From sequence record KY652723.1: DNA of 40,605 nt; one strand, written 5' to 3'. This stretch comes from Klebsiella phage vB_KpnP_PRA33. Below, piece after piece: positions 1,873 to 39,989 of the stretch (position 1 is the first letter of the stretch; the number at the start of each line of letters is the position of its first letter). The notes under the pieces are model-generated. The model made no database searches. It saw only the letters and a program-made list of their open reading frames with translations, and had not been told where the DNA came from. The position numbers were made by a program, and so were the translations under genes.

Positions 1873-2886
1873 ATGAACTACACCGATATACAAGCACGCT
1901 TAGACGTCATCCGCAACCTGCCAATCTGTGAACTCGACGAGCGCCAGCCGCTGCTGGTAGCACTCATGGCGGACATTGTGAACTATGAGACGTCCGACGG
2001 TGACGATACGGACAGCGATTGGGGTCTGGAACGTCAGGACTATTGGAAAACCCTGAAGATTAAGGCCAAAGACGCTGGGTTTAACCTGCTGGGCAATGGT
2101 CACTTCAGTGCAGCGTTTAAGCATAAGCTGCTACCGGGTAGGGTCATTAAGGTTGGCTTTAAGAAAGAGGACTCAGGGGCCGCCTATGTGGCTTTCTGCC
2201 GGATGCACCAAGGCCGTGTAGGGATTCCTAACGTCTATCACGTAGCGCGTCACGCTGGCTGCTATACGGTGGTGCTGGATGAACTGGAACCGTACCAGCG
2301 CAAGGAGAACGAGACGCATGAGCATTACGCAGACCTTGCTAACTACTTTGTGGAGAACTCTGGTGCAGAGCTGGGCGATGTTGACGGTGCAGAGAAGGAA
2401 TTACCCTTCGTCGAGACGTGCCAAATGATTAACAAGTTCTTCCACGGGATTGCATCCTTTGACATGCACAGCGGCAACATCATGTTCACCAAAGACGGCA
2501 AGCCAGTGATTACCGACCCGGTGTCATTCTCAGCGGACCGGGACCGTGAGCCTTTCTCACTGGAACCTGAGGAACTGCTCGCAGAGGTTGAGCAGATAGT
2601 GCGCAATAAGATGATTGAACGCTGTAAGCGCAACAAGGCTAAGCGTAATCCTCTGGGGACCTTTCAGAGAGACCGCAAGCACATCAACAAGGCACGCAGA
2701 CAACGCGCCAAGGTCCGAGCACGCCACATGAAGGAGCGCGAGCGGATTGACGCCGGGGTCCTAAAGGTTGACTTTGCGAAAGTCGAGGAGCGCATTCTGG
2801 CGTGGCAAGTGGTATCCGGCCTAGCGATACAACAGGGCAAGCCATTACCTATCGACAACTACCTTCAGGGTAGACTTATGGGCTAA
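1873..2886 (+). CDS. 0.7: Serine/threonine protein kinase / host transcription shut-off protein (T7 gp0.7 homolog)
   Basis: 337 aa. Long collinear similarity to T7 gp0.7: MN.TDI...LPICELD...GNGHFSAA..IKVGFKKEDSGAAY.AFCRM.QGR.GIPNVY...RHAGCYTVVLD...FDMHSGNIMF...ITDPVSFS. Confidence 0.92.
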   Translation: MNYTDIQARLDVIRNLPICELDERQPLLVALMADIVNYETSDGDDTDSDWGLERQDYWKTLKIKAKDAGFNLLGNGHFSAAFKHKLLPGRVIKVGFKKEDSGAAYVAFCRMHQGRVGIPNVYHVARHAGCYTVVLDELEPYQRKENETHEHYADLANYFVENSGAELGDVDGAEKELPFVETCQMINKFFHGIASFDMHSGNIMFTKDGKPVITDPVSFSADRDREPFSLEPEELLAEVEQIVRNKMIERCKRNKAKRNPLGTFQRDRKHINKARRQRAKVRARHMKERERIDAGVLKVDFAKVEERILAWQVVSGLAIQQGKPLPIDNYLQGRLMG

Positions 2887-2940
2887 CAAGGTGTATCTTA
2901 GGTGTCTCCGCACGGTGAGGCACCAATAGATAAACTTTAT
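2887..2940 (+). promoter_or_regulatory. Possible RNase III processing hairpin (R1 position)
   Basis: Imperfect inverted repeat GGTGTCTCCGCACGGTGAGGCACC between genes 0.7 and 1, where T7 has R1. Confidence 0.2.
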
Positions 2941-2974
2941 TAACGCCAGTTCTCTGGCACCAAAGAGGCACACA

Positions 2975-5695
2975 ATGAACGCATTAAACATTGCACGTAA
3001 TGACTTCTCAGAGATTGAACTAGCCGCTATTCCGTACAACATCCTCAGCGAGCACTACGGGGACAAGCTGGCACGTGAGCAGTTAACGCTCGAACATGAA
3101 GCGTACGAGCTGGGCGAGCAGCGTTTCCTGAAGATGCTGGAACGTCAGGTTAAAGCTGGTGAGTTCGCTGACAACGTGGCCGCCAAGCCGCTGGTCTTAA
3201 CGCTGCATCCACAGTTAACCAAACGTATTAACGATTGGAAAGAGGAGCAAGCAACCGCACGTGGTAAGAAGCCTCGCGCATACTATCCGATTAAGCATGG
3301 CGTGGCCTCAGAGTTAGCCCTAAGCATGGGCGCTGAGGTACTCAACGAGAAGCGCGGAGTGTCCAGTGAGGCAATCGCACTGCTGACCATTAAGGTCGTC
3401 TTAGGGACGCTCACAGATGCCTCTAAGGCCACCATCCAGCAGGTATCCTCTCAGTTAGGCAAGGCCCTTGAGGATGAGGCCCGCTTCGGTCGTATCCGTG
3501 AGCAGGAGGCCGCCTACTTCAAGAAGAACGTAGCGGACCAGCTGGACAAGCGCGTAGGCCACGTGTACAAGAAGGCTTTCATGCAGGTAGTCGAGGCCGA
3601 TATGATATCCAAAGGGATGCTTGGTGGGGACAACTGGGCGAGCTGGAAGACCGACGAGCAGATGCACGTAGGGACCAAGCTGTTGGAGCTACTCATTGAG
3701 GGGACTGGTCTGGTGGAGATGACCAAGAACAAGATGGCCGATGGCTCGGACGATGTGACCAGTATGCAAATGGTCCAGCTGGCTCCGGCCTTTGTGGAAC
3801 TCCTGAGTAAACGAGCGGGCGCACTTGCAGGTATCAGTCCTATGTACCAACCGTGCGTAGTCCCTCCGAAACCTTGGGTTGGGACCGTAGGCGGTGGCTA
3901 CTGGTCAGTCGGTCGTCGCCCGCTGGTACTGGTGCGTACCCACTCCAAGAAAGCACTGCGCCGCTATGAAGACGTGCACATGCCTGAGGTATACAAAGCG
4001 GTCAACCTCGCGCAAAACACACCGTGGAAGGTGAACAAGAAGGTGCTGGCGGTAGTCAACGAGATTGTCAACTGGAAGCACTGCCCGGTTGCTGACGTCC
4101 CAGCGATTGAACGCGAAGAGTTACCACCACGCCCAGACGATATCGACACCAACGAGGTGGCACGTAAGGCATGGCGCAAGGAGGCAGCAGCGGTGTACCG
4201 TAAGGACAAGGCCCGACAGTCTCGCCGTTTGTCAATGGAGTTCATGGTCGCACAGGCCAACAAGTTCGCTAACCATAAGGCCATTTGGTTCCCGTACAAC
4301 ATGGACTGGCGCGGACGTGTGTACGCTGTGAGCATGTTCAACCCTCAGGGTAACGACATGACCAAAGGTATGCTGACGCTGGCCAAGGGCAAACCAATCG
4401 GTCTCGATGGGTTCTACTGGCTGAAGATTCATGGTGCAAACTGTGCAGGCGTCGATAAGGTTCCCTTCCCTGAGCGCATCAAGTTCATCGAAGAGAACGA
4501 GGGTAACATTCTGGCGAGCGCAGCCGACCCGCTGAATAACACTTGGTGGACTAAGCAAGATTCACCGTTCTGCTTCTTAGCGTTCTGCTTTGAGTACGCA
4601 GGAGTTAAACATCACGGCCTGAATTACAACTGTTCGCTGCCGCTGGCGTTCGATGGGTCCTGCTCTGGGATTCAACATTTCAGTGCGATGCTCCGCGATT
4701 CTATCGGTGGCCGTGCGGTTAACCTGCTGCCTTCTGATACCGTGCAGGATATCTACAAGATTGTTGCCGACAAGGTTAACGAGGTGCTCAAGCAGCACGT
4801 TGTCAACGGGTCCCAGACGGTGGTCGAGCAGATTGCCGACAAGGATACAGGTGAGTTCCGCGAGAAGGTAACGCTGGGTGAGTCCGTACTGGCTGCGCAG
4901 TGGTTGCAATATGGTGTTACTCGCAAGGTGACTAAGCGTTCAGTCATGACGTTGGCGTATGGTTCCAAAGAGTTCGGCTTCCGCCAGCAAGTTCTTGAGG
5001 ACACCATTCAACCTGCTATTGACAACGGTGAGGGCTTGATGTTCACCCACCCGAACCAAGCGGCTGGCTACATGGCTAAGCTGATTTGGGACGCTGTGAC
5101 CGTGACCGTGGTGGCCGCTGTCGAAGCGATGAACTGGCTGAAGTCTGCCGCTAAGCTACTGGCCGCTGAGGTCAAGGACAAGAAGACCAAAGAGGTACTT
5201 CGTAAGCGCTGCGCAATCCACTGGGTAACACCAGACGGCTTCCCGGTGTGGCAGGAATACCACAAGCGCGACCAAGCGCGCCTGAAGCTAACGTTCTTAG
5301 GTCAGGCCAACGTGTTCATGACGTACAACAAAGGGGACACCAAAGAGATTGACGCGCACAAGCAAGAGTCGGGCATCGCGCCTAACTTTGTGCACTCACA
5401 GGATGGTAGTCACCTGCGCATGACCGTAGTGCACGCTAACGAGGTCTACGGGATTGACTCCTTCGCGCTCATTCACGACTCCTTCGGGACCATTCCGGCA
5501 GACGCTGGGAATCTCTTTAAGGCAGTCCGTGAGACGATGGTCAAGACCTACGAGGACAACGATGTGATTGCAGACTTCTATGACCAGTTCGCTGACCAGC
5601 TGCACGAGTCTCAGCTCGATAAAATGCCAGAAGTTCCGGCCAAAGGCGACCTTAATCTGCGCGATATCTTAGAGTCTGACTTCGCGTTCGCCTAA
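2975..5695 (+). CDS. 1: Single-subunit DNA-directed RNA polymerase (T7 gene 1 homolog)
   Basis: 906 aa with near-complete alignment to T7 RNAP (MN..NIA.NDFS.IELAAIP.N......YG..LAREQL.LEHE.YE.GE.RF.KM.ERQ.KAGE.ADN.AAKPL...; ...HKQESGIAPNFVHSQDGSHLR...; C-terminal ...RDILESDFAFA). Confidence 0.98.
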   Translation: MNALNIARNDFSEIELAAIPYNILSEHYGDKLAREQLTLEHEAYELGEQRFLKMLERQVKAGEFADNVAAKPLVLTLHPQLTKRINDWKEEQATARGKKPRAYYPIKHGVASELALSMGAEVLNEKRGVSSEAIALLTIKVVLGTLTDASKATIQQVSSQLGKALEDEARFGRIREQEAAYFKKNVADQLDKRVGHVYKKAFMQVVEADMISKGMLGGDNWASWKTDEQMHVGTKLLELLIEGTGLVEMTKNKMADGSDDVTSMQMVQLAPAFVELLSKRAGALAGISPMYQPCVVPPKPWVGTVGGGYWSVGRRPLVLVRTHSKKALRRYEDVHMPEVYKAVNLAQNTPWKVNKKVLAVVNEIVNWKHCPVADVPAIEREELPPRPDDIDTNEVARKAWRKEAAAVYRKDKARQSRRLSMEFMVAQANKFANHKAIWFPYNMDWRGRVYAVSMFNPQGNDMTKGMLTLAKGKPIGLDGFYWLKIHGANCAGVDKVPFPERIKFIEENEGNILASAADPLNNTWWTKQDSPFCFLAFCFEYAGVKHHGLNYNCSLPLAFDGSCSGIQHFSAMLRDSIGGRAVNLLPSDTVQDIYKIVADKVNEVLKQHVVNGSQTVVEQIADKDTGEFREKVTLGESVLAAQWLQYGVTRKVTKRSVMTLAYGSKEFGFRQQVLEDTIQPAIDNGEGLMFTHPNQAAGYMAKLIWDAVTVTVVAAVEAMNWLKSAAKLLAAEVKDKKTKEVLRKRCAIHWVTPDGFPVWQEYHKRDQARLKLTFLGQANVFMTYNKGDTKEIDAHKQESGIAPNFVHSQDGSHLRMTVVHANEVYGIDSFALIHDSFGTIPADAGNLFKAVRETMVKTYEDNDVIADFYDQFADQLHESQLDKMPEVPAKGDLNLRDILESDFAFA

Positions 5696-9220: not shown

Positions 9221-9916
9221 ATGGCATTCGCTAAGAAGAAGATTTATACCACCAAGATTGGTACCTGTGAGCCGTACGCTTACTTCAACAAGCCGGACTA
9301 TGGCGGTGAGGGTTTTGAGAACCCACGCGGTACCTACAAGGGTTCCGTAACGTTCAAGAACGAAGACTGTCAGGAGCTGGTAGACCTCATCGTTAAGACC
9401 CATGAGGAAAACTACGCGGCCCGTCTGGAAGCGCACGAAGCGAACCCGCCGAAGGTTCAGAAGGGCAAGAAACCCCTGAAGCCGTACGAAGGCGACATGC
9501 CGTTCTTCGACAACGGTGATGGTACCACCACGTTCAACTTCAAGTGCTACGGTTCGTACGAGGACAAGAAGACTGGCGAGACCAAGAAGATTGTTCTGGG
9601 TGTAGTAGACGCTAAAGGCAAGCGCATCCAAGACGTTCCGATCATCGGCGGTGGTTCCAAAGTGAAGATTCGCTTCTCACTGGTACCTTACGGCTGGTCT
9701 GCGGTAGCTGGTGCTTCCGTTAAGTTGCAGCTGGAAGGCGTGATGCTGGTCGAACTAGCTACCTTTGGTGGTGGCGAAGACGACTGGGCTGACGAAGCCG
9801 TAGAAGGCGGTTACGAAGCTGACGAACCTCGCAGCCGTAAACCTCAGGAAGACCCGGAAGACTGGTCTGGTGAGGAAGCTGACGAGGGTGAAGCCGAAGA
9901 AGAAGATGACTTCTAA
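9221..9916 (+). CDS. 2.5: Single-stranded DNA-binding protein
   Basis: 231 aa. ...TAEPYAY..KPDYG......NPRG.YK....F......CQ..VD.IVK.HEE.YAA..E..EANPP.V.KGKKPLKPYEGDMPFFDNGDGTTTF.FKCY.S..DKKT.ETK.I.L.VVD.KGK...DVPIIGGGSK.K...SLVPY.W....GASVKLQLE.VMLVELATFGGGEDDWADE, with the acidic C-terminal tail ending in F as in T7 gp2.5. Confidence 0.96.
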   Translation: MAFAKKKIYTTKIGTCEPYAYFNKPDYGGEGFENPRGTYKGSVTFKNEDCQELVDLIVKTHEENYAARLEAHEANPPKVQKGKKPLKPYEGDMPFFDNGDGTTTFNFKCYGSYEDKKTGETKKIVLGVVDAKGKRIQDVPIIGGGSKVKIRFSLVPYGWSAVAGASVKLQLEGVMLVELATFGGGEDDWADEAVEGGYEADEPRSRKPQEDPEDWSGEEADEGEAEEEDDF

Positions 9917-10368
9917 TGGCGGGCTATGGGGCCAAAGGGATTCGGAAGGTGGGTGCCTTCCGGTCTGGCCTTGAGGACAAGGTGTCCAAGCAGTTAGAAG
10001 CAAAGGGCGTCACGTTCGATTACGAATTGTGGCGCATCCCTTACGTTATTCCTGCGAGTGACCACCTTTACACTCCAGACTTCTTGTTACCCAATGGTAT
10101 CTTCGTGGAGACTAAGGGTCTCTGGGAAGCCGAGGACCGCAAGAAGCACCAATTGATTCGTGAGCAGTACCCGGAGTTAGACATCCGGTTAGTATTCTCT
10201 TCGAGTCGCACTAAGATTTACAAAGGGTCACCAACCAGTTACGCTGAGTGGTGCGAGAAGCATAACATCTTGTTTGCCGACAAATTGATTCCCGTAGACT
10301 GGCTGAAGGAGCCGAAGCGTGATGTACCGTTCGGCAAGTTCAAGCAGAAGAAAGGAGCAAAGCAATGA
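9916..10368 (+). CDS. 3: Endonuclease I (Holliday junction resolvase)
   Basis: 150 aa. MAGYGAKGIRKVGAFRSGLEDKVSKQLE.KG..F.YE.W..PYVIPAS.H.YTPDFLLPNGIFVETKGLWE..DRKKH.LIREQ.PELDIR.VFSSSRTK.YKGSPTSY.E.CEKH....ADKLIP is near-identical to T7 gp3. Confidence 0.96.
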   Translation: MAGYGAKGIRKVGAFRSGLEDKVSKQLEAKGVTFDYELWRIPYVIPASDHLYTPDFLLPNGIFVETKGLWEAEDRKKHQLIREQYPELDIRLVFSSSRTKIYKGSPTSYAEWCEKHNILFADKLIPVDWLKEPKRDVPFGKFKQKKGAKQ

Positions 10369-10802
10369 TTCACCCCAAACTTGAGATAGTGCCTACCGAT
10401 TCCTGCATCGAATGGACAGGAGCGCACCACAAGAATGGATACGGAGTCATCTCCCTTAACCGCAAGGTTGCCCACGAGCTGGGCGTGTCGCGTGTACAGT
10501 TCGTCCACCGAGCGTCATACATGCAGCACAAGGGACCCATTCCGAGTGGGCTTGTAGTCCGCCATACGTGCGACAATAAGCGCTGCTATAACCCTGAGCA
10601 TTTGCTACTTGGGACACAGAAAGATAATGCAGACGACGCTGTGGAGCGTGGACTGTCTAAACGAAAACTAACCGATGCAGATGTGGAGGTAATACGCTCA
10701 TCCAGTGAATCTAACAGGAAGTTAGGTAAATACTATGGAGTCAGTGCGACAACTATCTATCACATTAAGCACGGCACTAAATGGAGACACGTAAATGCCT
10801 AA
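10365..10802 (+). CDS. HNH-family homing endonuclease (free-standing), inserted between genes 3 and 3.5
   Basis: 145 aa. HNH core ...VVRHTCDNKRCYNPEHLLLGTQKDNADD... with an upstream Cys/His (CIEWTGAHHKNGYG) and a C-terminal IYHIKHG..W DNA-binding-like tail. Overlaps the gene 3 stop (ATGA) and the gene 3.5 start by 8 nt. T7 has nothing at this position. Confidence 0.8.
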   Translation: MIHPKLEIVPTDSCIEWTGAHHKNGYGVISLNRKVAHELGVSRVQFVHRASYMQHKGPIPSGLVVRHTCDNKRCYNPEHLLLGTQKDNADDAVERGLSKRKLTDADVEVIRSSSESNRKLGKYYGVSATTIYHIKHGTKWRHVNA

Positions 10803-11241
10803 GGTACAATTCACTAAACGAAAGGAGACCTCTCAGATTTTCGTACACTGCTCCGCAACCAAGCCGTCTATGGACATTGGTGTCCGGGAGATTGCTCAGT
10901 GGCACAAGGAGCAGGGATGGTTAGCAATTGGATACCACTTCATCATCCGTCGTGACGGTACCATTGAGGCTGGCCGCGACCAAGATGCTGTGGGTTCACA
11001 CGTCAAGGGATACAACTCGACTTCTGTAGGTGTGTGTCTGGTAGGTGGTATCGACGCCAAGGGTAACCCAGAGGCAAACTTCACGCCAGCCCAGATGCAG
11101 TCTCTTCGCTCACTGCTGGTAGAACTGAAGGTGCAATACGCTGGGGCTGTGCTGATGGCACACCACGACGTAGCACCTAAAGCCTGCCCGAGCTTCGACC
11201 TGAAGCGCTGGTGGGAGAAGAACGAACTGGTCACTTCCGAC

Positions 11242-11250
<9 letters not shown>
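10795..11250 (+). CDS. 3.5: N-acetylmuramoyl-L-alanine amidase (T7 lysozyme; also inhibits the phage RNAP)
   Basis: 151 aa. ...VQF..R..T..IFVHCSATKPS...GVREI.QWHKEQGWL..GYHFII.RDGT.EAGRD..AVGSH.KGYN..S.GVCLVGGID.KG...ANFTPAQMQSLRSLLV.L......AVL.AHH.VAPKACPSFDLKRWWEKNELVTSDRG is identical in pattern to T7 gp3.5. Confidence 0.96.
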
Positions 11251-13236
<1,986 letters not shown>

Positions 13237-33400: not shown

Positions 33401-36400
33401 ATGATGGACCAAGACATTAAAACAGTCATTCAGTACCCAGTGGGGGCCACTGAGTTCGACATCCCGTTCGACTACCTTTCCCGCAAGTTCGTCAGAGTGT
33501 CACTAGTAGCTGGCGACAACCGCAGACTGCTGAGTAATATCACTGAGTACCGCTACGTGTCTAAGACCAGAGTGAAACTCCTTGTGGAAACTACCGGGTT
33601 CGACCGTGTGGAAATTCGCAGATTCACCTCAGCTTCAGAGCGTGTAGTAGACTTCAGTGATGGCTCGGTTCTCCGTGCAGCCGACCTTAACGTATCTCAA
33701 ATACAGTCGGCACATATCGCAGAGGAAGCACGTGACGGTCAGTATTACAGCCTCAATCTTAACGACCTCGGACAGTTTGACGCTAAGGGTACTAAGATTA
33801 TTAACCTAGGTGCGCCAACGTCCCCACAAGATGCCACAACGAAACTGTATGTGGACACTAAGGACCAAGTCCTTAGCCAGAGAATCCTCGATGAAATCAA
33901 AGCGAGAGCCGATGGGGACATCGAGATGCTCCGTCAGGCAAAAATGTATTCCGACTCCCATATTCCTGGAATTTTGCCGGAGGGGGCCACGTCTGTCGGT
34001 TACTGGTTACCATCTGCAACAGCACTGATGAATGATGACTCTGGACACCCTGTGGTTAGGGTCCGTGGGTTCTACACTGCCGATGATGGTGGCGAGGGTA
34101 GTTGGGTGTGGACCAACGAGGTAGATGCTCAAAAGGCTGGGACACACGACATTTTAACGGCCTCGGTGTATGATAAGGTAGGTCGCCGCTACCGTATCGA
34201 TATCACCATTGGGGCTGTAAACGCGGCACAGAACGGTGCCCGCAGATTAACCTACGCACAAGCTACCGACAGGACCACAGACGACTTCGTGTGCCTAGGT
34301 CAGGTAATCTCTGGTATCACCTCACTGATGCCCCTCCCAGTATCAACTAACAACAGTGAGAGTGGATACATTGGCGATTATCGAATCAACCTAACGATAT
34401 CTCCGGGCCGCTACCGTATCGGTAAAGAGTCTGGTGGAATTGACTCGGGCATGGTAATCAACGCGTGGGGAGCACGAGTGCACGTTGTTGCTGGTAAGTC
34501 TTACACCAGAGCAATTACTGGTAAGTGGATTCACGGTCTGGTGCACGGATACGACCAGATTAAACGTAAGTGGGAGGCTGTTGGTAAACAAGCGTTCTGG
34601 GGCAGTGTTTCCCTGAAGGATGTGGTAATCAACGGCGGCTTCTGGATTGGTGACCACGACCTGCGGACTCCGGCTTCCGAGTGCTCTGCTGGCGTTGGTA
34701 CGCTCCTACTGAACCCTGAAGGCGTAATCCTGAACGGTGTGCACCAGCGCAACTTCAACTGGGTCCATGTCGCTATGGGAGCAATGATTGGGGAGACTTG
34801 GTACCGCACTTCGAAAGGTCGTCACTTTGATGATAACGAACTTGACTACCCTTACGTTATGGACTTTATGACCTCTAACGTTCCGCCAGTTACTCGCCGC
34901 TTCGGTAACTTCAACCGCGTGGCGTATCACGGGTGTAAATTCGAAAGTGGACGTCGTGGCGTGTTCCGCAATGGCGTTGACTGGTCTGGGTGCTACAACA
35001 CCGAAATCATCAACAACATCGCATGGAGAAACCCGGCTAACGCGGACGGAAGTCTTCCAGAGTTCATCGCCGTACTTACGGGTACTGCGTTCCACATGAG
35101 CGCTGGTTACATGGGTCCTGCGGCAGCTAAGGACTTCAACGCAGGAGTTGCCTCTGTCTACAGTTCTACCCAGAACATTAAGTTCGACGCTACGTACACC
35201 GAGTGGACTTATGCTTTCATGATGATTTCCTCATGGGGCTTTGTGGATTCAGCAAGTCGCCTTCAAGGCCTCTCTCTGGACCTTGTGTCTGTGTACAAGG
35301 ATAACTTTGCGGATTACGGTCAGATTATCTTTGAGGAGGGGTGTTTCCCGACTATGTCCGAAGATGGCTCAGCTACTTACCCTGCTGGCTTTAAACACTT
35401 CGACACGCCTCAAGGGCAGTCTCCGTATGTTATTGGCAAGCCTGTACGAGATGTTGGTGCGTTTCGTAACCAAGGGTTCGACTTTAAGTACGCAACCAAC
35501 AACGTGTACCTGACAACTGGAACCGATTGGGAATCGTGGCGAGACCGTCCGTATGCCCGCGAGATGTTCAATGCGTTTGGCTTACAGATTAACTCTGGTA
35601 CTGCCTTCCTACCGTTGCAGAACCCAGCAGATAAGTCTATGACCTGCATCTGGTATAAGGACTTCACTGGGAACTTCGATACCAGAAAGGTTATCCAGTT
35701 CATCACTGCTGCCGCACAAGAGGGGCCTAATGCCGACGAGGCTCTTTACAAGTCATACGCAGAGCGTGTTGTTGACTTTGGTAATGGCTACAAGATGATG
35801 ATGATTCCAAACAAGAGACTGACGGCATGGGATGGTATCTACACCTACGCACGCAACGCAAGCATCACGGTGGAGGTGTCAGCAGATACTCCTATCGCAC
35901 TGATTGCTGTCGAAGCGTACACTGGTGGTGTACCACTGTTCCCTAACGGTGTCCCTAACTACGTTCCGGAATCTTCATGTGCCAGCGTGGTACCAACAGC
36001 GCCTCAGGTTGGGTTCGACTCTAACCTTGGCGGCGGTCTCTTCTTTAACGGTGACGTTGTAGGCCCTTGGGTTCACGTTCGTCGTAACAAGGTTGGCCGC
36101 AGGATTACCCCTCAGGTTACTGCTGGTTCCGTATTGTCCACACGTAGAGTGAGTGGTCAGGGTGTCACCTTAGAGTCTGCCCTGAAGACAACGTTCACAG
36201 CGACGATTATTAGCTCTAATGCTGATACTACGACAATCTCCATCCCAACTGCGTCCCTCCCATCGGTGGCAGTAGGCATCCCGCTGTATGTGCAGTCAGG
36301 TTCATCCACTGGATTCACTGGGCTTGCCCACCTGCACCTCAGGGTGATGCTGGCTAACGGTAAGGCGGACAACAAGTACGTTGTTAACGGTAAGCTTGGG

Positions 36401-37132
36401 GAGGCTGGTGATAACCTCACTATTGACCAGTCTCAGATTGCCGCTTATACGCTTCTTGCTGACTTTACACAGACTACCATCACAGCCGAGACCATGACTC
36501 TCTCCGGTGTTGCGCGTGCGTCTGCGTTCAGGGCCTCTGTAGGTGTGGACGTTGGGTATGGTGGTAGCTCTGAGCCTAAGGTTGTGGCTTTTTACTTTAA
36601 CGGCGGAACCACTTCAACTCACGCCATCACAGCAACTTCCCTTAACGGAATGAGTGTTAACGCCAACGGTAACCTCTCAATCAACGGTCACACGTTCTCT
36701 ACGCAGGACGGTACGCACACACTGGGTACTGCGCAGAACAGGTGGGCGGCTGTATGGTCCGCTAACGGAACGCTCCAGACGTCCGATGAGCGCTTTAAGA
36801 TTCTCGATGGGGATATCCCCGAAGAGCTTCTTGATGCCTGGGAGAAGTACGTGAAGGTTAAAGTGTACCGTATGAAATCTGCGGTCTCCCTGAAGGGTCC
36901 TGATGCTCGTAAGCACGTTGGGTATATTGCCCAGCATGTGATTGAGGCATTGACTCAGGCAGGACTCGATTGGACGAAATACGGTGTGGTTGGTTTCGAT
37001 GAGTGGGATGCTAACGAGTTTGGTCCGGCAGGTGACCGCTACAGCCTTCGCTATGACCAGTGTGCTGCCATTGAGAACGCTGTGCTGGACCGCAGGATTC
37101 GCCGTCTTGAGGAGCTTCTGCTAAACAAATAG
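33401..37132 (+). CDS. 17: Tailspike/tail fibre: gp17 N-terminal adaptor domain, large central beta-helix-like (putative depolymerase) module and C-terminal intramolecular chaperone (peptidase S74) domain
   Basis: 1243 aa. Residues 1-about 150 align with the T7 gp17/K1F gp17 N-terminal domain (...[13 protein letters not shown]......L......YR............G.D.VEIRR.TS...[25 protein letters not shown]). The last about 116 aa (from S1128, nt 36782) match the endosialidase/T5 pb1-type C-terminal chaperone: S-D-E-R-F-K Ser/Lys dyad, ...[11 protein letters not shown]...GLD...[10 protein letters not shown]....YSLRYDQ...RRIRRLEE. Confidence 0.88.
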
Positions 37133-37788: not shown

Positions 37789-38235
37789 ATGCTGGAAATT
37801 ACAAAGAGAATAGTACCGTATCTTGTGGTTATCATGGTGTTCGCCTTCGGGTGGCACTTCGGTTCACAATCTATGGACACCAAGTGGAAGGAGGTAGTAC
37901 AGAATGAGTACGTTAAGAAGCAAACGGCTAGAGCTGAAACTCAGAAAGCGATTGACGCAGTATCGGCTAAGTACCAAGCAGACCTTGAAGGGCTGGAAGG
38001 CAGCACTGATAGGATTATTGCTGATTTGCGTAGCGACAATAAGCGGTTGCGCGTCAAAGTCAAACCTACCAGTGTCCCCGCAGGACCAGACGGTCGATGC
38101 CTCGTTGATGGTTCCGTCGAACTACACGAAGCAACTGCTCGAAGTCTTATCGCAATAACTAAGAAGGCCGACCTCAAAGAGAAGGCCCTACAGGACACTA
38201 TTCGTAAGCTACAGCGGAAAGGAGGTGAACATTGA
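37789..38235 (+). CDS. 18.5: i-spanin (Rz-like, gp18.5)
   Basis: 148 aa with an N-terminal TM. ML.....I.P......VFAFGWH.GS.SMD.KWK..V.NEYVK.......[37 protein letters not shown]... Confidence 0.85.
37985..38158 (+). CDS. 18.7: o-spanin (Rz1-like lipoprotein, gp18.7) embedded in the +1 frame of Rz
   Basis: TTG-initiated [22 protein letters not shown] has a lipobox (ISGC) followed by a Pro-rich mature part. The frame is open from 37904 if an upstream ATG is used instead. Confidence 0.6.
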   Translation: MKGWKAALIGLLLICVATISGCASKSNLPVSPQDQTVDASLMVPSNYTKQLLEVLSQ

Positions 38236-39989
38236 GTAACTCTCAGCAAGCCAAGAACGCCTTAATCATTGCGCAACTGAAGGGTGACTTTGTTGCCTTT
38301 CTCTTTGTGCTCTGGAAGGCCCTGAACCTACCGGAACCAACCAAGTGTCAAATCGACATGGCCAAGTGTCTGGCTAACCCAAAGAACAAGAAGTTTATCC
38401 TTCAGGCTTTCCGTGGTATCGGGAAGTCGTTCATCACGTGTGCGTTCGTAGTGTGGACCCTGTGGCGTGACCCTCAGTTAAAGATACTGATTGTCTCAGC
38501 CTCAAAGGAACGTGCGGACGCTAACTCCATCTTCATCAAGAACATCATCGACTTGTTGCCTTTCCTGAGTGAGCTTAAGCCTCGCCCCGGTCAGCGTGAC
38601 TCCGTGATTAGCTTTGATGTAGGCCCTGCCAAGCCAGACCACAGCCCGTCAGTTAAGTCTGTGGGTATTACGGGTCAGCTTACTGGTAGCCGTGCTGATA
38701 TCATCATTGCGGATGACGTTGAGATTCCCGGTAACTCTGCAACACAGGGTGCTCGTGAGAAACTCTGGACGTTGGTTCAGGAGTTCGCTGCACTGTTGAA
38801 ACCGCTGCCGACTAGCCGTGTTATCTATCTGGGCACCCCTCAGACCGAGATGACGCTCTACAAGGAACTTGAGGACAACCGCGGGTACTCCACCATCATC
38901 TGGCCTGCGCAGTATCCTCGCTCCAAAGAGGAAGACTTGTACTATGGTGACCGACTGGCTCCTATGCTACGTAGCGAGTACGATGAGGACAAAGAGGGTC
39001 TCAGTAGCCAACCTACCGACCCGGTTCGGTTCGACTCTATGGACCTTCAGGAGCGTGAGGTGGAATACGGCAAGGCTGGCTATACGCTTCAGTTCATGCT
39101 CAACCCGAACCTCAGTGACGCCGAGAAGTACCCTCTACGCCTCCGTGACGCCATCGTGTGCGGTCTACAGGCGGACAAGGCCCCAATGCACTACCAGTGG
39201 CTACCGAACCGTCAGAACCGCAATGAGGAGCTTCCTAACGTGGGCATGAAGGGTGATGAGATTTACTCCTTCCATACAGCCTCCAGTAACACTGGTGCGT
39301 ATCAGGGTAAGATTCTGGTCATTGACCCTAGTGGTCGCGGTAAGGATGAGACTGGCTGGTGCGTGCTGTACACCCTCAACGGTTACATCTACTTGATGGA
39401 CGCTGGTGGTACTCGTGGTTACGAAGAGAAGTCCCTTGAGTTCCTCGCTAAGAAAGCCAAACAGTGGCAGGTACAGACTGTGGTCTTCGAGAGTAACTTC
39501 GGTGACGGTATGTTCGGTAACGTATTCCAGCCTGTGCTCCTGAAGCATCACCCAGCGCAACTCGAAGAGATTCGTGCTCGTGGTATGAAAGAGGTCCGCA
39601 TCTGCGATACTCTTGAGCCTGTACTGGCAAGTCACCGCTTGGTCATCCGTGACGAGGTTATCCGACAGGACTACCAGACGGCACGTGATGCAGACGGTAA
39701 GCACGCTCTGAAGTACAGCCTGTTCTACCAGATGACCCGTATGAGTCGTGAGAAGGGCGCTGTGGCACACGACGACCGACTTGATGCGTTAGCATTAGGT
39801 GTCGAGTTCCTACGCTCTACGATGCAGCAGGACGCTGTGAAGATAGAGGCTGAGGTACTTCAGGAGTTCTTAGAGCACCACATGGAGAAACCCCTGAGTA
39901 ACATCTCACAGTTCCGAGCCACCAGCAGCAACGGTGTGGACATCCGGTGGGAAGACGATGGGGACGACTCTATGTTCATCGCGTGGTGA
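38232..39989 (+). CDS. 19: Terminase large subunit (gp19)
   Basis: 585 aa, apparent TTG start 11 nt after GGAGGTG. ...[197 protein letters not shown] is nearly identical to T7 gp19. Confidence 0.97.

What the first reader, a model, noticed from the sequence alone, without database searches (positions are those of the whole stretch)
10365..10802. Free-standing HNH homing endonuclease wedged between endonuclease I (gene 3) and the amidase (gene 3.5)
This 145-aa ORF has a clear HNH core (RHTCDNKRCYNPEHLLLGTQKDN) plus an N-terminal Cys/His cluster and a C-terminal IYHIKHG.KW tail. It sits where T7 has no gene, overlapping the gene 3 stop by 4 nt and the gene 3.5 start by 8 nt. Such tight insertion between two essential genes is typical of selfish homing endonucleases that spread between co-infecting T7-like phages. 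It marks a probable recent mobile insertion and a possible marker-exclusion locus.
Basis: partly seen in the sequence, partly recalled or inferred. Interest (0 to 1): 0.6.

Follow-up and report, generated by a model that had tools for sequence, protein, structure and literature searches.

The report
Mobile HNH homing endonuclease gene
This is an ordinary, already-annotated selfish nuclease gene found in about 9% of KP32-like Klebsiella phages; it always travels with a diverged first ~140 bases of the neighbouring lysozyme gene, which probably marks where the enzyme cuts phages that lack it.

Summary
The 145-aa ORF at 10365..10802 (+) overlaps the gene 3 stop by 4 nt and the gene 3.5 start by 8 nt. 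It scores above the Pfam HNH_3 cut-off and has a C-terminal helix-turn-helix. Its confident AlphaFold model is closest to the homing nickase I-HmuI.

The window is a KP32-like Klebsiella phage (Przondovirus). In GenBank only 37 of about 410 such phages carry the gene. The rest have gene 3 TAA-GT-ATG gene 3.5, so 429 nt replace a 2-nt spacer.

Among carriers the gene is 98-100% identical while their backbones differ as much as random phage pairs. Every carrier also has a distinct allele of gene 3.5 nt 1-~140, only ~81% identical to non-carriers. No such linkage exists upstream. The same pattern recurs in phiA1122 (gene 3.3) versus T7, and in coliphage P151 versus Shigella phage A7.

Best reading: a free-standing ("intronless") homing endonuclease. 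It probably cuts or nicks the common gene 3.5 allele 120-150 bp downstream of its own gene. Cleavage itself is untested.

Novelty is low. Identical proteins are already deposited as HNH (homing) endonuclease, and the phiA1122 homologue is annotated as protein 3.3.

The parts
9916..10368 (+). Gene 3 (endonuclease I, Holliday-junction resolvase), the upstream neighbour. Here its stop is TGA because the usual TAA has become CAA, adding one codon (Q).
   Evidence: Pfam PF05367, E=5e-81, full length. Relatives end AAG TAA. No site in 1,847 nt upstream of the insertion is associated with HNH presence.
10354..10357 (+). GGAG Shine-Dalgarno. In empty-site phages it serves gene 3.5; here it is taken over by the HNH ORF (7 nt before the ATG at 10365).
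   Evidence: Direct reading of the sequence and of the empty-site junctions AAAGGAG(T/C)AAAGTAAGTATG. Function is inferred.
10365..10802 (+). HNH homing endonuclease gene (145 aa), homologue of phiA1122 protein 3.3.
10366..10794 (+). Inserted segment relative to empty-site relatives: 429 nt in place of the 2-nt spacer GT (net +427 nt).
   Evidence: Alignment with phi1_146022 (empty) and P3a (occupied). Junctions of six empty-site phages. Gaps of 432 versus 4-5 nt across 53 loci.
10500..10631 (+). HNH / His-Me finger core (residues 46-89). Predicted general base H67 (10563-10565) and metal-binding N88 (10626-10628). C69, C74 and H79, with C14, form the predicted structural zinc site.
   Evidence: Pfam HNH_3 covers residues 46-89. 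C14, H67, C69, C74, P77, H79, L80, G83, N88 and D91 are invariant in 58 homologues. Residues 64-88 align to I-PpoI residues 95-119, which contain H98 and N119. Roles of residues are inferred by homology.
10662..10775 (+). C-terminal three-helix helix-turn-helix DNA-binding module (residues ~100-137).
   Evidence: Sub-threshold Pfam HTH_50, HTH_38 and HTH_psq hits. AlphaFold helices 104-112, 117-124 and 128-135 at pLDDT 85-94. Full-length Foldseek match to I-HmuI.
10783..10786 (+). Replacement Shine-Dalgarno GGAG for gene 3.5, lying inside the HNH codons for K-W-R, 8 nt before the gene 3.5 ATG.
   Evidence: Direct reading. The KWR codons (AAGTGGAGG / AAATGGAGA) are conserved in phiA1122 and P151. 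Function is inferred.
10795..10940 (+). HNH-linked allele of the first ~140 nt of gene 3.5: the co-conversion / presumed self-immunity tract and candidate target region. Codon 2 (CCT AAG instead of GCC AAG) also creates the HNH stop codon.
   Evidence: 25 sites with allele-frequency difference >=0.8 between carriers and non-carriers all fall at gene 3.5 nt 4-150. Haplotypes are shown. Carrier pairs are 97.9-100% identical; carrier versus non-carrier averages 81%. The GenBank identity distribution is bimodal, with 40 records >=92.5% and the next at 89%. The window switches to the non-carrier type at nt 147, so its tract ends at about 10932-10941.
10795..11250 (+). Gene 3.5 (T7 lysozyme-type N-acetylmuramoyl-L-alanine amidase), the downstream neighbour.
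   Evidence: Pfam Amidase_2, E=1.6e-15.

Best explanation
[quoted passage not shown] It sits in the 2-nt spacer between gene 3 and gene 3.5 and is transcribed and translated with the class II genes. It uses the old gene 3.5 ribosome-binding site and supplies a new one for gene 3.5 within its last codons. Proposed mechanism (inferred, not shown): when a carrier and a non-carrier phage co-infect a cell, the enzyme nicks or cuts the non-carrier genome within the first ~150 bp of gene 3.5. The best guess is around nt 120-150, the DNA encoding the conserved ...KEQGWLDVGYHF... segment. T7-type recombination then repairs the break from the carrier genome. That copies the resistant gene 3.5 5' allele and, with it, the endonuclease gene ('intronless homing', as for T4 SegF, SegG and MobE). 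The carrier is protected because its own gene 3.5 5' region is a diverged allele. Shown here: domain content and predicted fold, presence/absence at a precise site, near-identity of gene plus tract on diverse backbones, one-sided linkage, recurrence in three genera, and purifying selection. Inferred: nuclease activity, position of the cut, immunity of the tract, and super-Mendelian inheritance.
For: Protein: HNH_3 at 50.9 bits versus a cut-off of 24.8. All HNH/zinc residues are invariant in 58 homologues. AlphaFold pLDDT is 90. The top Foldseek PDB match is I-HmuI 1u3e over all 145 residues (prob 0.99), and the core matches I-PpoI. PADLOC's 'homing endonuclease' model hits at E=9e-8.

Mobility: only 37 of about 410 Klebsiella records carry the gene. 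The empty site is clean. The window's closest genome, IL33, lacks it. Among main-lineage carriers HNH identity is 98.1-99.8% and tract identity 97.9-100%. Their gene 2.5, gene 3, rest of gene 3.5 and gene 4 are no more alike (95.5, 97.2, 85.9, 93.5%) than those of non-carrier pairs (95.3, 97.3, 84.9, 94.3%).

One-sided linked tract: 25 associated sites lie at gene 3.5 nt 4-150 and none elsewhere in about 3.7 kb. In GenBank, 37 of the 40 records with the tract allele carry the HNH, and none of about 370 with the other allele does.

Recurrence: phiA1122 (3.3+) versus T7 is 95.7% identical in gene 2.5 and 98.6% in gene 3.8, but 57-83% in the first 180 nt of gene 3.5. P151 (+) versus A7 (-) is 98.4% in gene 2.5 and 99.3% in gene 3, then 67-90% for 180 nt, then 93-100%. 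No 3.3 carrier (0 of 15, four genera) has the canonical gp3.5 motif REIRQWHKEQGWLDVGYHF, which 52 of the 63 other loci have.

Functional maintenance: dN/dS is 0.07-0.12.

Precedent: free-standing phage endonucleases cut hundreds of bp from their own gene and drag flanking markers along (review PMC2988022).
Against: No cleavage, nicking or inheritance experiment exists for this protein or for any 3.3-type homologue that I could find.

The tract could be passive hitch-hiking. At ~81% identity it offers few stretches long enough for crossovers, so linkage alone does not prove it holds the target.

The tract allele is not exclusive to carriers. phi1_146022 has it with no HNH. Kp_Pokalde_002 and TUN1 have it together with a T7 gp2.8-type HNH on the other side of gene 3. 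The 'LAI' protein variant also occurs in other genera without a 3.3 gene.

Tract dS of about 0.9-1.0 shows an old allele rather than a few immunity mutations. Carrier counts are phylogenetically non-independent. One carrier (vB_Kpn15-P3) has a frameshift after residue 100.
Confidence: 0.7

Rival explanations
1. Classical homing: the enzyme cuts at or next to its own insertion point (the gene 3 stop / gene 3.5 start junction of empty-site phages), and the insertion itself destroys the site. The gene 3.5 tract is then only a passively co-converted flank.
For: The insertion is precise and replaces only 2 nt, as with intron- or intein-type homing sites. Low identity within the tract may suppress crossovers and preserve linkage without selection.
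Against: Co-conversion from a cut at the insertion point should extend on both sides with variable ends. Here there is no linked site in 1,847 nt upstream. All 36 main-lineage GenBank carriers keep the whole 146-nt tract at 97.9-100% identity. The junction sequence is not conserved between genera that hold 70%-identical enzymes at the same place. Known free-standing phage endonucleases cut away from their genes (PMC2988022).
Confidence: 0.17
2. The protein mainly benefits the phage rather than itself, for example by attenuating a host defence that senses DNA breaks or by interference competition against related phages. Homing would be secondary or lost.
For: A 2025 preprint reports that phage HNH homing endonucleases blunt GAPS4 immunity without needing catalysis. 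A T7 mutant lacking genes 2.8, 3.8 and 7.7 is outcompeted only when GAPS4 is present (bioRxiv 10.1101/2025.09.07.674715). T7 gp2.8 is the closest T7 homologue of this protein (40% identity, same architecture). Strong purifying selection fits a useful protein.
Against: The gene is present in only ~9% of Przondovirus genomes and is always tied to one flanking allele. That is the signature of a site-specific selfish element, not of a generally useful gene. The catalytic residues are invariant. This protein was not tested in the preprint. The two roles are not exclusive.
Confidence: 0.1
3. An ancestral, non-mobile gene of T7-like phages that most lineages have lost (differential loss, no horizontal movement).
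For: Homologues sit at the same junction in Przondovirus, Teseptimavirus, Berlinvirus and Teetrevirus. Sub-lineages are old (dS up to 0.5).
Against: Hundreds of empty sites share the same clean 2-nt spacer. Carriers are scattered over backbones as diverged as random pairs yet share a 98-100% identical gene plus tract. The nearest relative of the window lacks the gene.
Confidence: 0.03

Closest known systems
Yersinia phage phiA1122 protein 3.3 and same-position homologues in Escherichia phages P151 and JacobBurckhardt, Serratia phage SALSA, Klebsiella phage mtp8 and Aeromonas phage KFSA9
   Same: Same family (63-75% aa identity). Same position between gene 3 and gene 3.5, same size and domain order. 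In phiA1122 and P151 there is the same diverged first ~180 nt of gene 3.5 relative to an HNH-less relative.
   Different: Different phage genera and hosts. The stop lies at different places in gene 3.5 (29-nt overlap in phiA1122, 1 nt in P151, 8 nt here). The linked gene 3.5 alleles are not the same sequence across genera (window versus P151 tract 69% identity). None has been characterised biochemically as far as my searches show.
T7 gene 2.8 protein (HNH between genes 2.5 and 3)
   Same: 40% identical. Same CxW...HxCDNxxCxNPxHL...N core plus C-terminal HTH. Free-standing, and patchily distributed next to gene 3.
   Different: It is inserted on the other side of gene 3. In Kp_Pokalde_002 and TUN1 it is linked to a foreign gene 3 allele (63% nt identity). 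Target unknown.
T4 free-standing endonucleases SegF, SegG and MobE ('intronless homing')
   Same: What it appears to work like: an intergenic endonuclease gene, a cleavage site in a neighbouring conserved gene at a distance, co-conversion of the flank, and localised marker exclusion (PMC2988022, PMC2790892). MobE is also HNH.
   Different: SegF and SegG are GIY-YIG enzymes. The phage family and recombination machinery differ. Here the distance would be only ~120-150 bp, and nothing has been shown experimentally.
I-HmuI (SPO1 intron HNH nickase, PDB 1u3e)
   Same: Best structural match over the full length. Same order of nuclease and C-terminal HTH. Monomeric single active site, suggesting nicking.
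   Different: Only 20% identity and TM 0.43. I-HmuI is intron-encoded and lacks the Cys/His zinc site, which here resembles the I-PpoI His-Cys box.

Membership tests
HNH / His-Me finger nucleases (Pfam HNH_3, PF13392) | Profile match above the curated gathering score | tested here: met
   50.9 bits against a cut-off of 24.8, E=1.2e-13, residues 46-89.
HNH / His-Me finger nucleases (Pfam HNH_3, PF13392) | Catalytic His (general base) and metal-binding Asn in a beta-beta-alpha fold | tested here: met
   H67 and N88 are invariant in 58 homologues. Strands 64-67 and 80-83 plus helix 85-94 are modelled at pLDDT 90-95. The core superposes on I-PpoI at 2.9-3.5 A.
HNH / His-Me finger nucleases (Pfam HNH_3, PF13392) | Metal-dependent DNA cleavage | not testable with these tools
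   Needs purified protein.
Homing endonuclease genes (functional class) | Presence/absence polymorphism at one precise site among close relatives | tested here: met
   37 of about 410 Klebsiella records and 6 of 53 IMG/VR loci carry it. The empty site is TAA-GT-ATG.
Homing endonuclease genes (functional class) | Gene transferred together with flanking markers (co-conversion), discordant with the backbone | tested here: met
   HNH is 98-99.8% and the tract 98-100% identical on backbones as diverged as random pairs. The linked sites are one-sided. This is population evidence, not an observed cross.
Homing endonuclease genes (functional class) | Site-specific cleavage of the gene-less allele, resistance of the carrier allele, and super-Mendelian inheritance | not testable with these tools
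   No published test found.
His-Cys box endonucleases (I-PpoI type; Pfam zf-His_Me_endon, PF05551) | Profile match above cut-off and two zinc sites | tested here: not met
   23.3 bits against a cut-off of 27. The PDB sequence match to I-PpoI has E=0.7-1 over 25 residues only. Only one Cys/His cluster is conserved (C14, C69, C74, H79).
Terminase-associated HNH (cos-cutting helper) | Gene adjacent to terminase / portal genes in a cos phage | tested here: not met
   It lies among class II DNA-metabolism genes, about 27 kb from the large ORF at 38232..39989 near the right end. The genome is T7-like.

The most novel reading that the evidence does not exclude
The DNA encoding the conserved N-terminal third of the T7-type lysozyme (gp3.5 residues ~30-50) may be a shared battleground for two paralogous HNH families that flank gene 3. 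These are the 2.8-type upstream and the 3.3-type downstream; they never co-occur in the 15 carriers examined. Both can be linked to the same resistant gene 3.5 allele. If so, selfish nucleases, and not host or RNA-polymerase interactions, would maintain two ancient allele classes of an important phage gene across several genera. The nuclease might in addition serve as a catalysis-independent anti-defence factor.
Probability: 0.15. Interest if true: 0.5.

Novelty: already known. Interest (0 to 1): 0.25.

Why it matters
For annotation, the call 'HNH homing endonuclease' is right and nothing unusual needs flagging.

The added value is a concrete, testable prediction for an uncharacterised family found across four Studiervirinae genera: the cut site lies in the first ~150 bp of gene 3.5, and the carrier allele is immune.

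This matters in practice. Przondovirus phages are used in Klebsiella therapy cocktails and as engineering scaffolds. A carrier phage in a cocktail could convert or exclude the gene 3.5 region of its partners, and the gene is a natural hot spot for recombination.

It also gives a clean natural data set (about 410 genomes, about 9% carriers) for studying homing-endonuclease population dynamics in lytic phages.

Tried and rejected
1. PDB sequence search gave only weak I-PpoI matches (E~1). NCBIfam gave no hit.

2. Idea: the HNH and its tract move between genera as one cassette. Rejected. The window tract is 69% identical to the P151 tract but 83-85% identical to non-carrier tracts of its own genus. 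The linkage is re-created within each genus.

3. Search for single nucleotides that differ from the non-carrier consensus in all 15 carriers. Only nt 12 qualified. The consensus is dominated by Przondovirus, so this does not locate the target. A 24-nt sliding window was most consistently altered at nt 111-134, which is suggestive only.

4. The gp3.5 'LAI' variant as a unique marker of carriers. Rejected, because it also occurs with 2.8-type HNHs and in some phages with no HNH.

5. phi1_146022 as a simple deletion derivative. Unlikely. Deletion between the GTAA repeats would leave TAAATG, whereas it has the TAAGTATG spacer of ordinary empty sites. It more likely represents the HNH-free form of the resistant allele.

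6. Left-flank linkage was looked for and not found.

7. Other homing endonuclease genes in the window: none found, using an HNH_3 profile and phmmer with T7 2.8 and 3.8 against all six-frame ORFs and PHROGs on ten small ORFs.

8. Terminase-helper role rejected on position.

9. The first MAFFT run timed out and was repeated with faster settings.

Full report
**Observation**

The ORF exists as described: 10365..10802 on the + strand, 145 aa, ATG start. It overlaps the TGA of gene 3 (9916..10368) in an ATGA arrangement. It ends 8 nt inside gene 3.5 (10795..11250).
- Gene 3 matches Phage_endo_I over its full length (E=5e-81).
- Gene 3.5 matches Amidase_2 (E=1.6e-15).

The quoted motifs are all present. 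The ORF is a real gene:
- Pfam HNH_3 scores 50.9 bits against a cut-off of 24.8.
- PHROG 59 'HNH endonuclease' gives E=1.9e-36.
- There are 185 homologues at E<=1e-5.
- dN/dS is 0.07-0.12 between three sub-lineages whose synonymous divergence reaches 0.5.

**The protein**

Besides the HNH_3 core (residues 46-89) there are sub-threshold hits to the I-PpoI zinc-loop family and to several HTH families at residues 100-137. In an alignment of 58 homologues, C14, H67, C69, C74, P77, H79, L80, G83, N88 and D91 are invariant.

The AlphaFold model is confident (mean pLDDT 90). It shows two beta hairpins, the beta-beta-alpha core and three C-terminal helices.

Foldseek against the PDB puts the SPO1 homing nickase I-HmuI (1u3e) first, over all 145 residues (prob 0.99, TM 0.43). 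I-PpoI follows for the core. By sequence, the only PDB similarity is the I-PpoI stretch containing H98 and N119.

By homology I infer that H67 is the general base and N88 the metal ligand, and that C14/C69/C74/H79 form a structural zinc site. A single active site in a small monomeric protein suggests a nickase, but this is not shown.

**Genomic setting**

The window is a KP32-like Klebsiella phage (Przondovirus). Its best match over 25 kb is IL33 at 94.7%.

With gene 3 through gene 3.5 as query, 635 phage records match but only 39 cover the ORF. A search with the ORF alone finds it in 37 Przondovirus records, out of 413 Klebsiella records that match the adjacent gene 3.5 segment.

In IMG/VR, 6 of 53 Przondovirus-like loci carry it. 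IL33, the nearest relative, does not (L014).

Empty sites read ...AAAG TAA GT ATG..., so 429 nt (10366-10794) replace a 2-nt spacer. The element takes over the GGAG that serves gene 3.5 in empty genomes (10354-10357). It provides a new GGAG (10783-10786) inside its own K-W-R codons, 8 nt before the gene 3.5 ATG. Those codons are conserved in the phiA1122 and P151 homologues.

**Evidence for mobility**

Among seven main-lineage carriers, the HNH gene is 98.1-99.8% identical. The table gives mean pairwise identity of the flanking genes.

| Region | Carrier pairs | Non-carrier pairs |
|---|---|---|
| Gene 2.5 | 95.5% | 95.3% |
| Gene 3 | 97.2% | 97.3% |
| Rest of gene 3.5 | 85.9% | 84.9% |
| Gene 4 | 93.5% | 94.3% |

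Carrier backbones are therefore no more alike than those of random pairs. In each flanking segment the window's nearest neighbour is usually a non-carrier.

**A linked tract in gene 3.5**

The first ~140-150 nt of gene 3.5 is 97.9-100% identical among carriers. It is on average 81% (at most 84.9%) identical between carriers and non-carriers.

I scored every polymorphic site in 1,847 nt upstream and 1,900 nt downstream. 25 sites have an allele-frequency difference of at least 0.8. All lie at gene 3.5 nt 4-150 (window 10798-10944), and none lies anywhere else.

GenBank shows the same split. Identity to window 10795-10940 is bimodal: 40 records at >=92.5%, the next at 89%, and the bulk at 80-85%. 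37 of the 40 are the HNH carriers.

The window itself reverts to the non-carrier type at nt 147, whereas most carriers keep carrier-specific bases to nt 153. So the window has the shortest tract seen.

One tract difference is functional for the element: CCT AAG instead of GCC AAG at codons 2-3 creates the HNH stop codon.

**Recurrence in other genera**

Homologues of 63-75% identity occupy the same junction in these phages:
- phiA1122 (protein 3.3) and JacobBurckhardt (Teseptimavirus)
- P151 (Berlinvirus)
- SALSA and mtp8 (Teetrevirus)
- Aeromonas phage KFSA9 (Teseptimavirus)

phiA1122 versus T7 is 95.7% identical in gene 2.5, 98.6% in gene 3.8 and 96% in gene 4. It is only 57-83% identical in the first 180 nt of gene 3.5, and 97-100% after that.

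P151 versus the HNH-less A7 is 98.4% in gene 2.5 and 99.3% in gene 3. It drops to 67-90% for the first 180 nt of gene 3.5, then returns to 93-100%. The two HNH-less Berlinviruses are 87-100% identical there.

At protein level, the segment REIRQWHKEQGWLDVGYHF (gp3.5 residues 31-49) is identical in 52 loci from three genera, none of which has a 3.3-type gene. All 15 carriers differ from it at one to four positions.

**Interpretation**

This is the pattern expected of a free-standing homing endonuclease that cuts at a distance from its own gene. Everything between the cut and the gene is necessarily co-converted. The carrier must also hold a non-cleavable allele at the cut site. This is the 'intronless homing' described for T4 SegF, SegG and MobE (PMC2988022; PMC2790892).

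The one-sided block that ends sharply at nt ~140-153 suggests a cut near its distal end. The clustered fixed differences at nt 119-133 recur in all three genus pairs. I therefore place the likely target around gene 3.5 nt 120-150. I rate the general mechanism at about 0.7, and the specific location at roughly even odds.

**Caveats**

- The tract is an old allele (dS about 0.9-1.0, dN ten times that of the rest of the gene), not a handful of immunity mutations.
- Its low identity would itself suppress crossovers.
- It is not exclusive to carriers. phi1_146022 has it with no HNH. Kp_Pokalde_002 and TUN1 have it with a T7 gp2.8-type HNH upstream of a foreign gene 3 allele.
- These HNH-free tract genomes keep the ordinary TAA-GT-ATG spacer. 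They look like the resistant, never-invaded (or pre-invasion) form rather than deletion derivatives.
- One carrier, vB_Kpn15-P3, has a 1-nt deletion that truncates the protein after residue 100. This is decay or a sequencing error.

**Rival explanations**

1. A cut at the insertion point with passive hitch-hiking of the tract is possible. It fits poorly with the complete absence of upstream linkage and the uniform tract length.
2. A beneficial, catalysis-independent anti-defence role has been reported for other phage HNH homing endonucleases, and for a T7 mutant lacking genes 2.8, 3.8 and 7.7 (bioRxiv 10.1101/2025.09.07.674715). It may coexist with homing. It does not explain the 9% frequency or the allele linkage.
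3. Differential loss of an ancestral gene is contradicted by near-identical cassettes on diverged backbones.
4. A terminase-helper role is excluded by position.

**Comparison with what is known**

The protein is a member of HNH_3: the profile and fold features are met, while activity is untested. It fails the cut-off for the I-PpoI His-Cys box family. Functionally it meets the two population-level criteria of a homing endonuclease gene. The biochemical and genetic criteria cannot be tested here.

The gene is already in the databases:
- KpV766 encodes a 100% identical protein.
- p9676 annotates it as 'HNH homing endonuclease'.
- The phiA1122 record AY247822 annotates its homologue as 'protein 3.3'.
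- A 2025 paper notes HNH presence/absence between Przondovirus phages KP192 and KP195 (PMC12295037).

I found no experimental work on the 3.3-type family.

**Verdict**

The finding is correct and ordinary. The new element is a specific, testable prediction of where the enzyme cuts.

Noticed in passing
L093 652-1071 (Kp_Pokalde_002), L094 652-1071 (TUN1), L095 650-1069 (PMBT12), L092 1058-1477 (T7 gene 2.8): A paralogous HNH (T7 gp2.8-type; 39-40% identical to the window protein, same architecture) sits between gene 2.5 and gene 3. In Pokalde_002 the whole of gene 3 is a foreign allele (63% nt identity to the window), yet gene 3.5 nt 1-120 is 100% identical to the window's HNH-linked tract. No locus examined has both a 2.8-type and a 3.3-type gene.
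   Followed up: partly
L063 ~2590-3010 (KP32 isolate 195): Another HNH (46% identical) lies at the gene 2.5/3 junction. The first ~90 nt of the downstream gene 3 is diverged (73-87% versus 93-100% for the rest, compared with IL33). This is the same 'HNH plus diverged 5' end of the next gene' layout as in the window.
   Followed up: partly
L001 130-519 (phi1_146022); also L030, L035, L043 and L054 at ~1750-2007: A third HNH type (36-40% identical over residues 64-137) lies between the nucleotide kinase gene (1.7) and the RNA polymerase inhibitor gene (2) in some Przondovirus genomes. It is absent from the window.
   Followed up: no
L066, L070, L076 (between gene 3 and gene 3.5, ~3420-3685): Three more distant T7-like contigs have a 230-270 nt insert with no similarity to this HNH at the same gene 3/3.5 junction. 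Its content was not examined.
   Followed up: no
L102 697-1125 (vB_Kpn15-P3, PP848840): This carrier has a 1-nt deletion in the HNH gene that truncates the protein after residue 100, removing the HTH. It is either decay of the element or a sequencing error.
   Followed up: partly
window 10363-10368: The usual gene 3 stop TAA is CAA in the window, so gene 3 reads one codon further (Q) to TGA. In other carriers such as P3a, gene 3 stops at TAA and overlaps the HNH ATG by 1 nt rather than 4.
   Followed up: yes
window 11251-11300: The sequence ATTAGGTAGCACTACAGGGAGACA just downstream of gene 3.5 looks like a phage-RNA-polymerase promoter (the position of T7 phi3.8). No such sequence lies inside the HNH insert, so the HNH appears to have no promoter of its own. 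This was judged by eye only.
   Followed up: no
window 33401-37132: A very long ORF (1,243 aa) follows the 1,321-aa internal-core-protein-sized ORF. It is presumably the tail fibre / capsule depolymerase that sets host capsular type. Not analysed.
   Followed up: no
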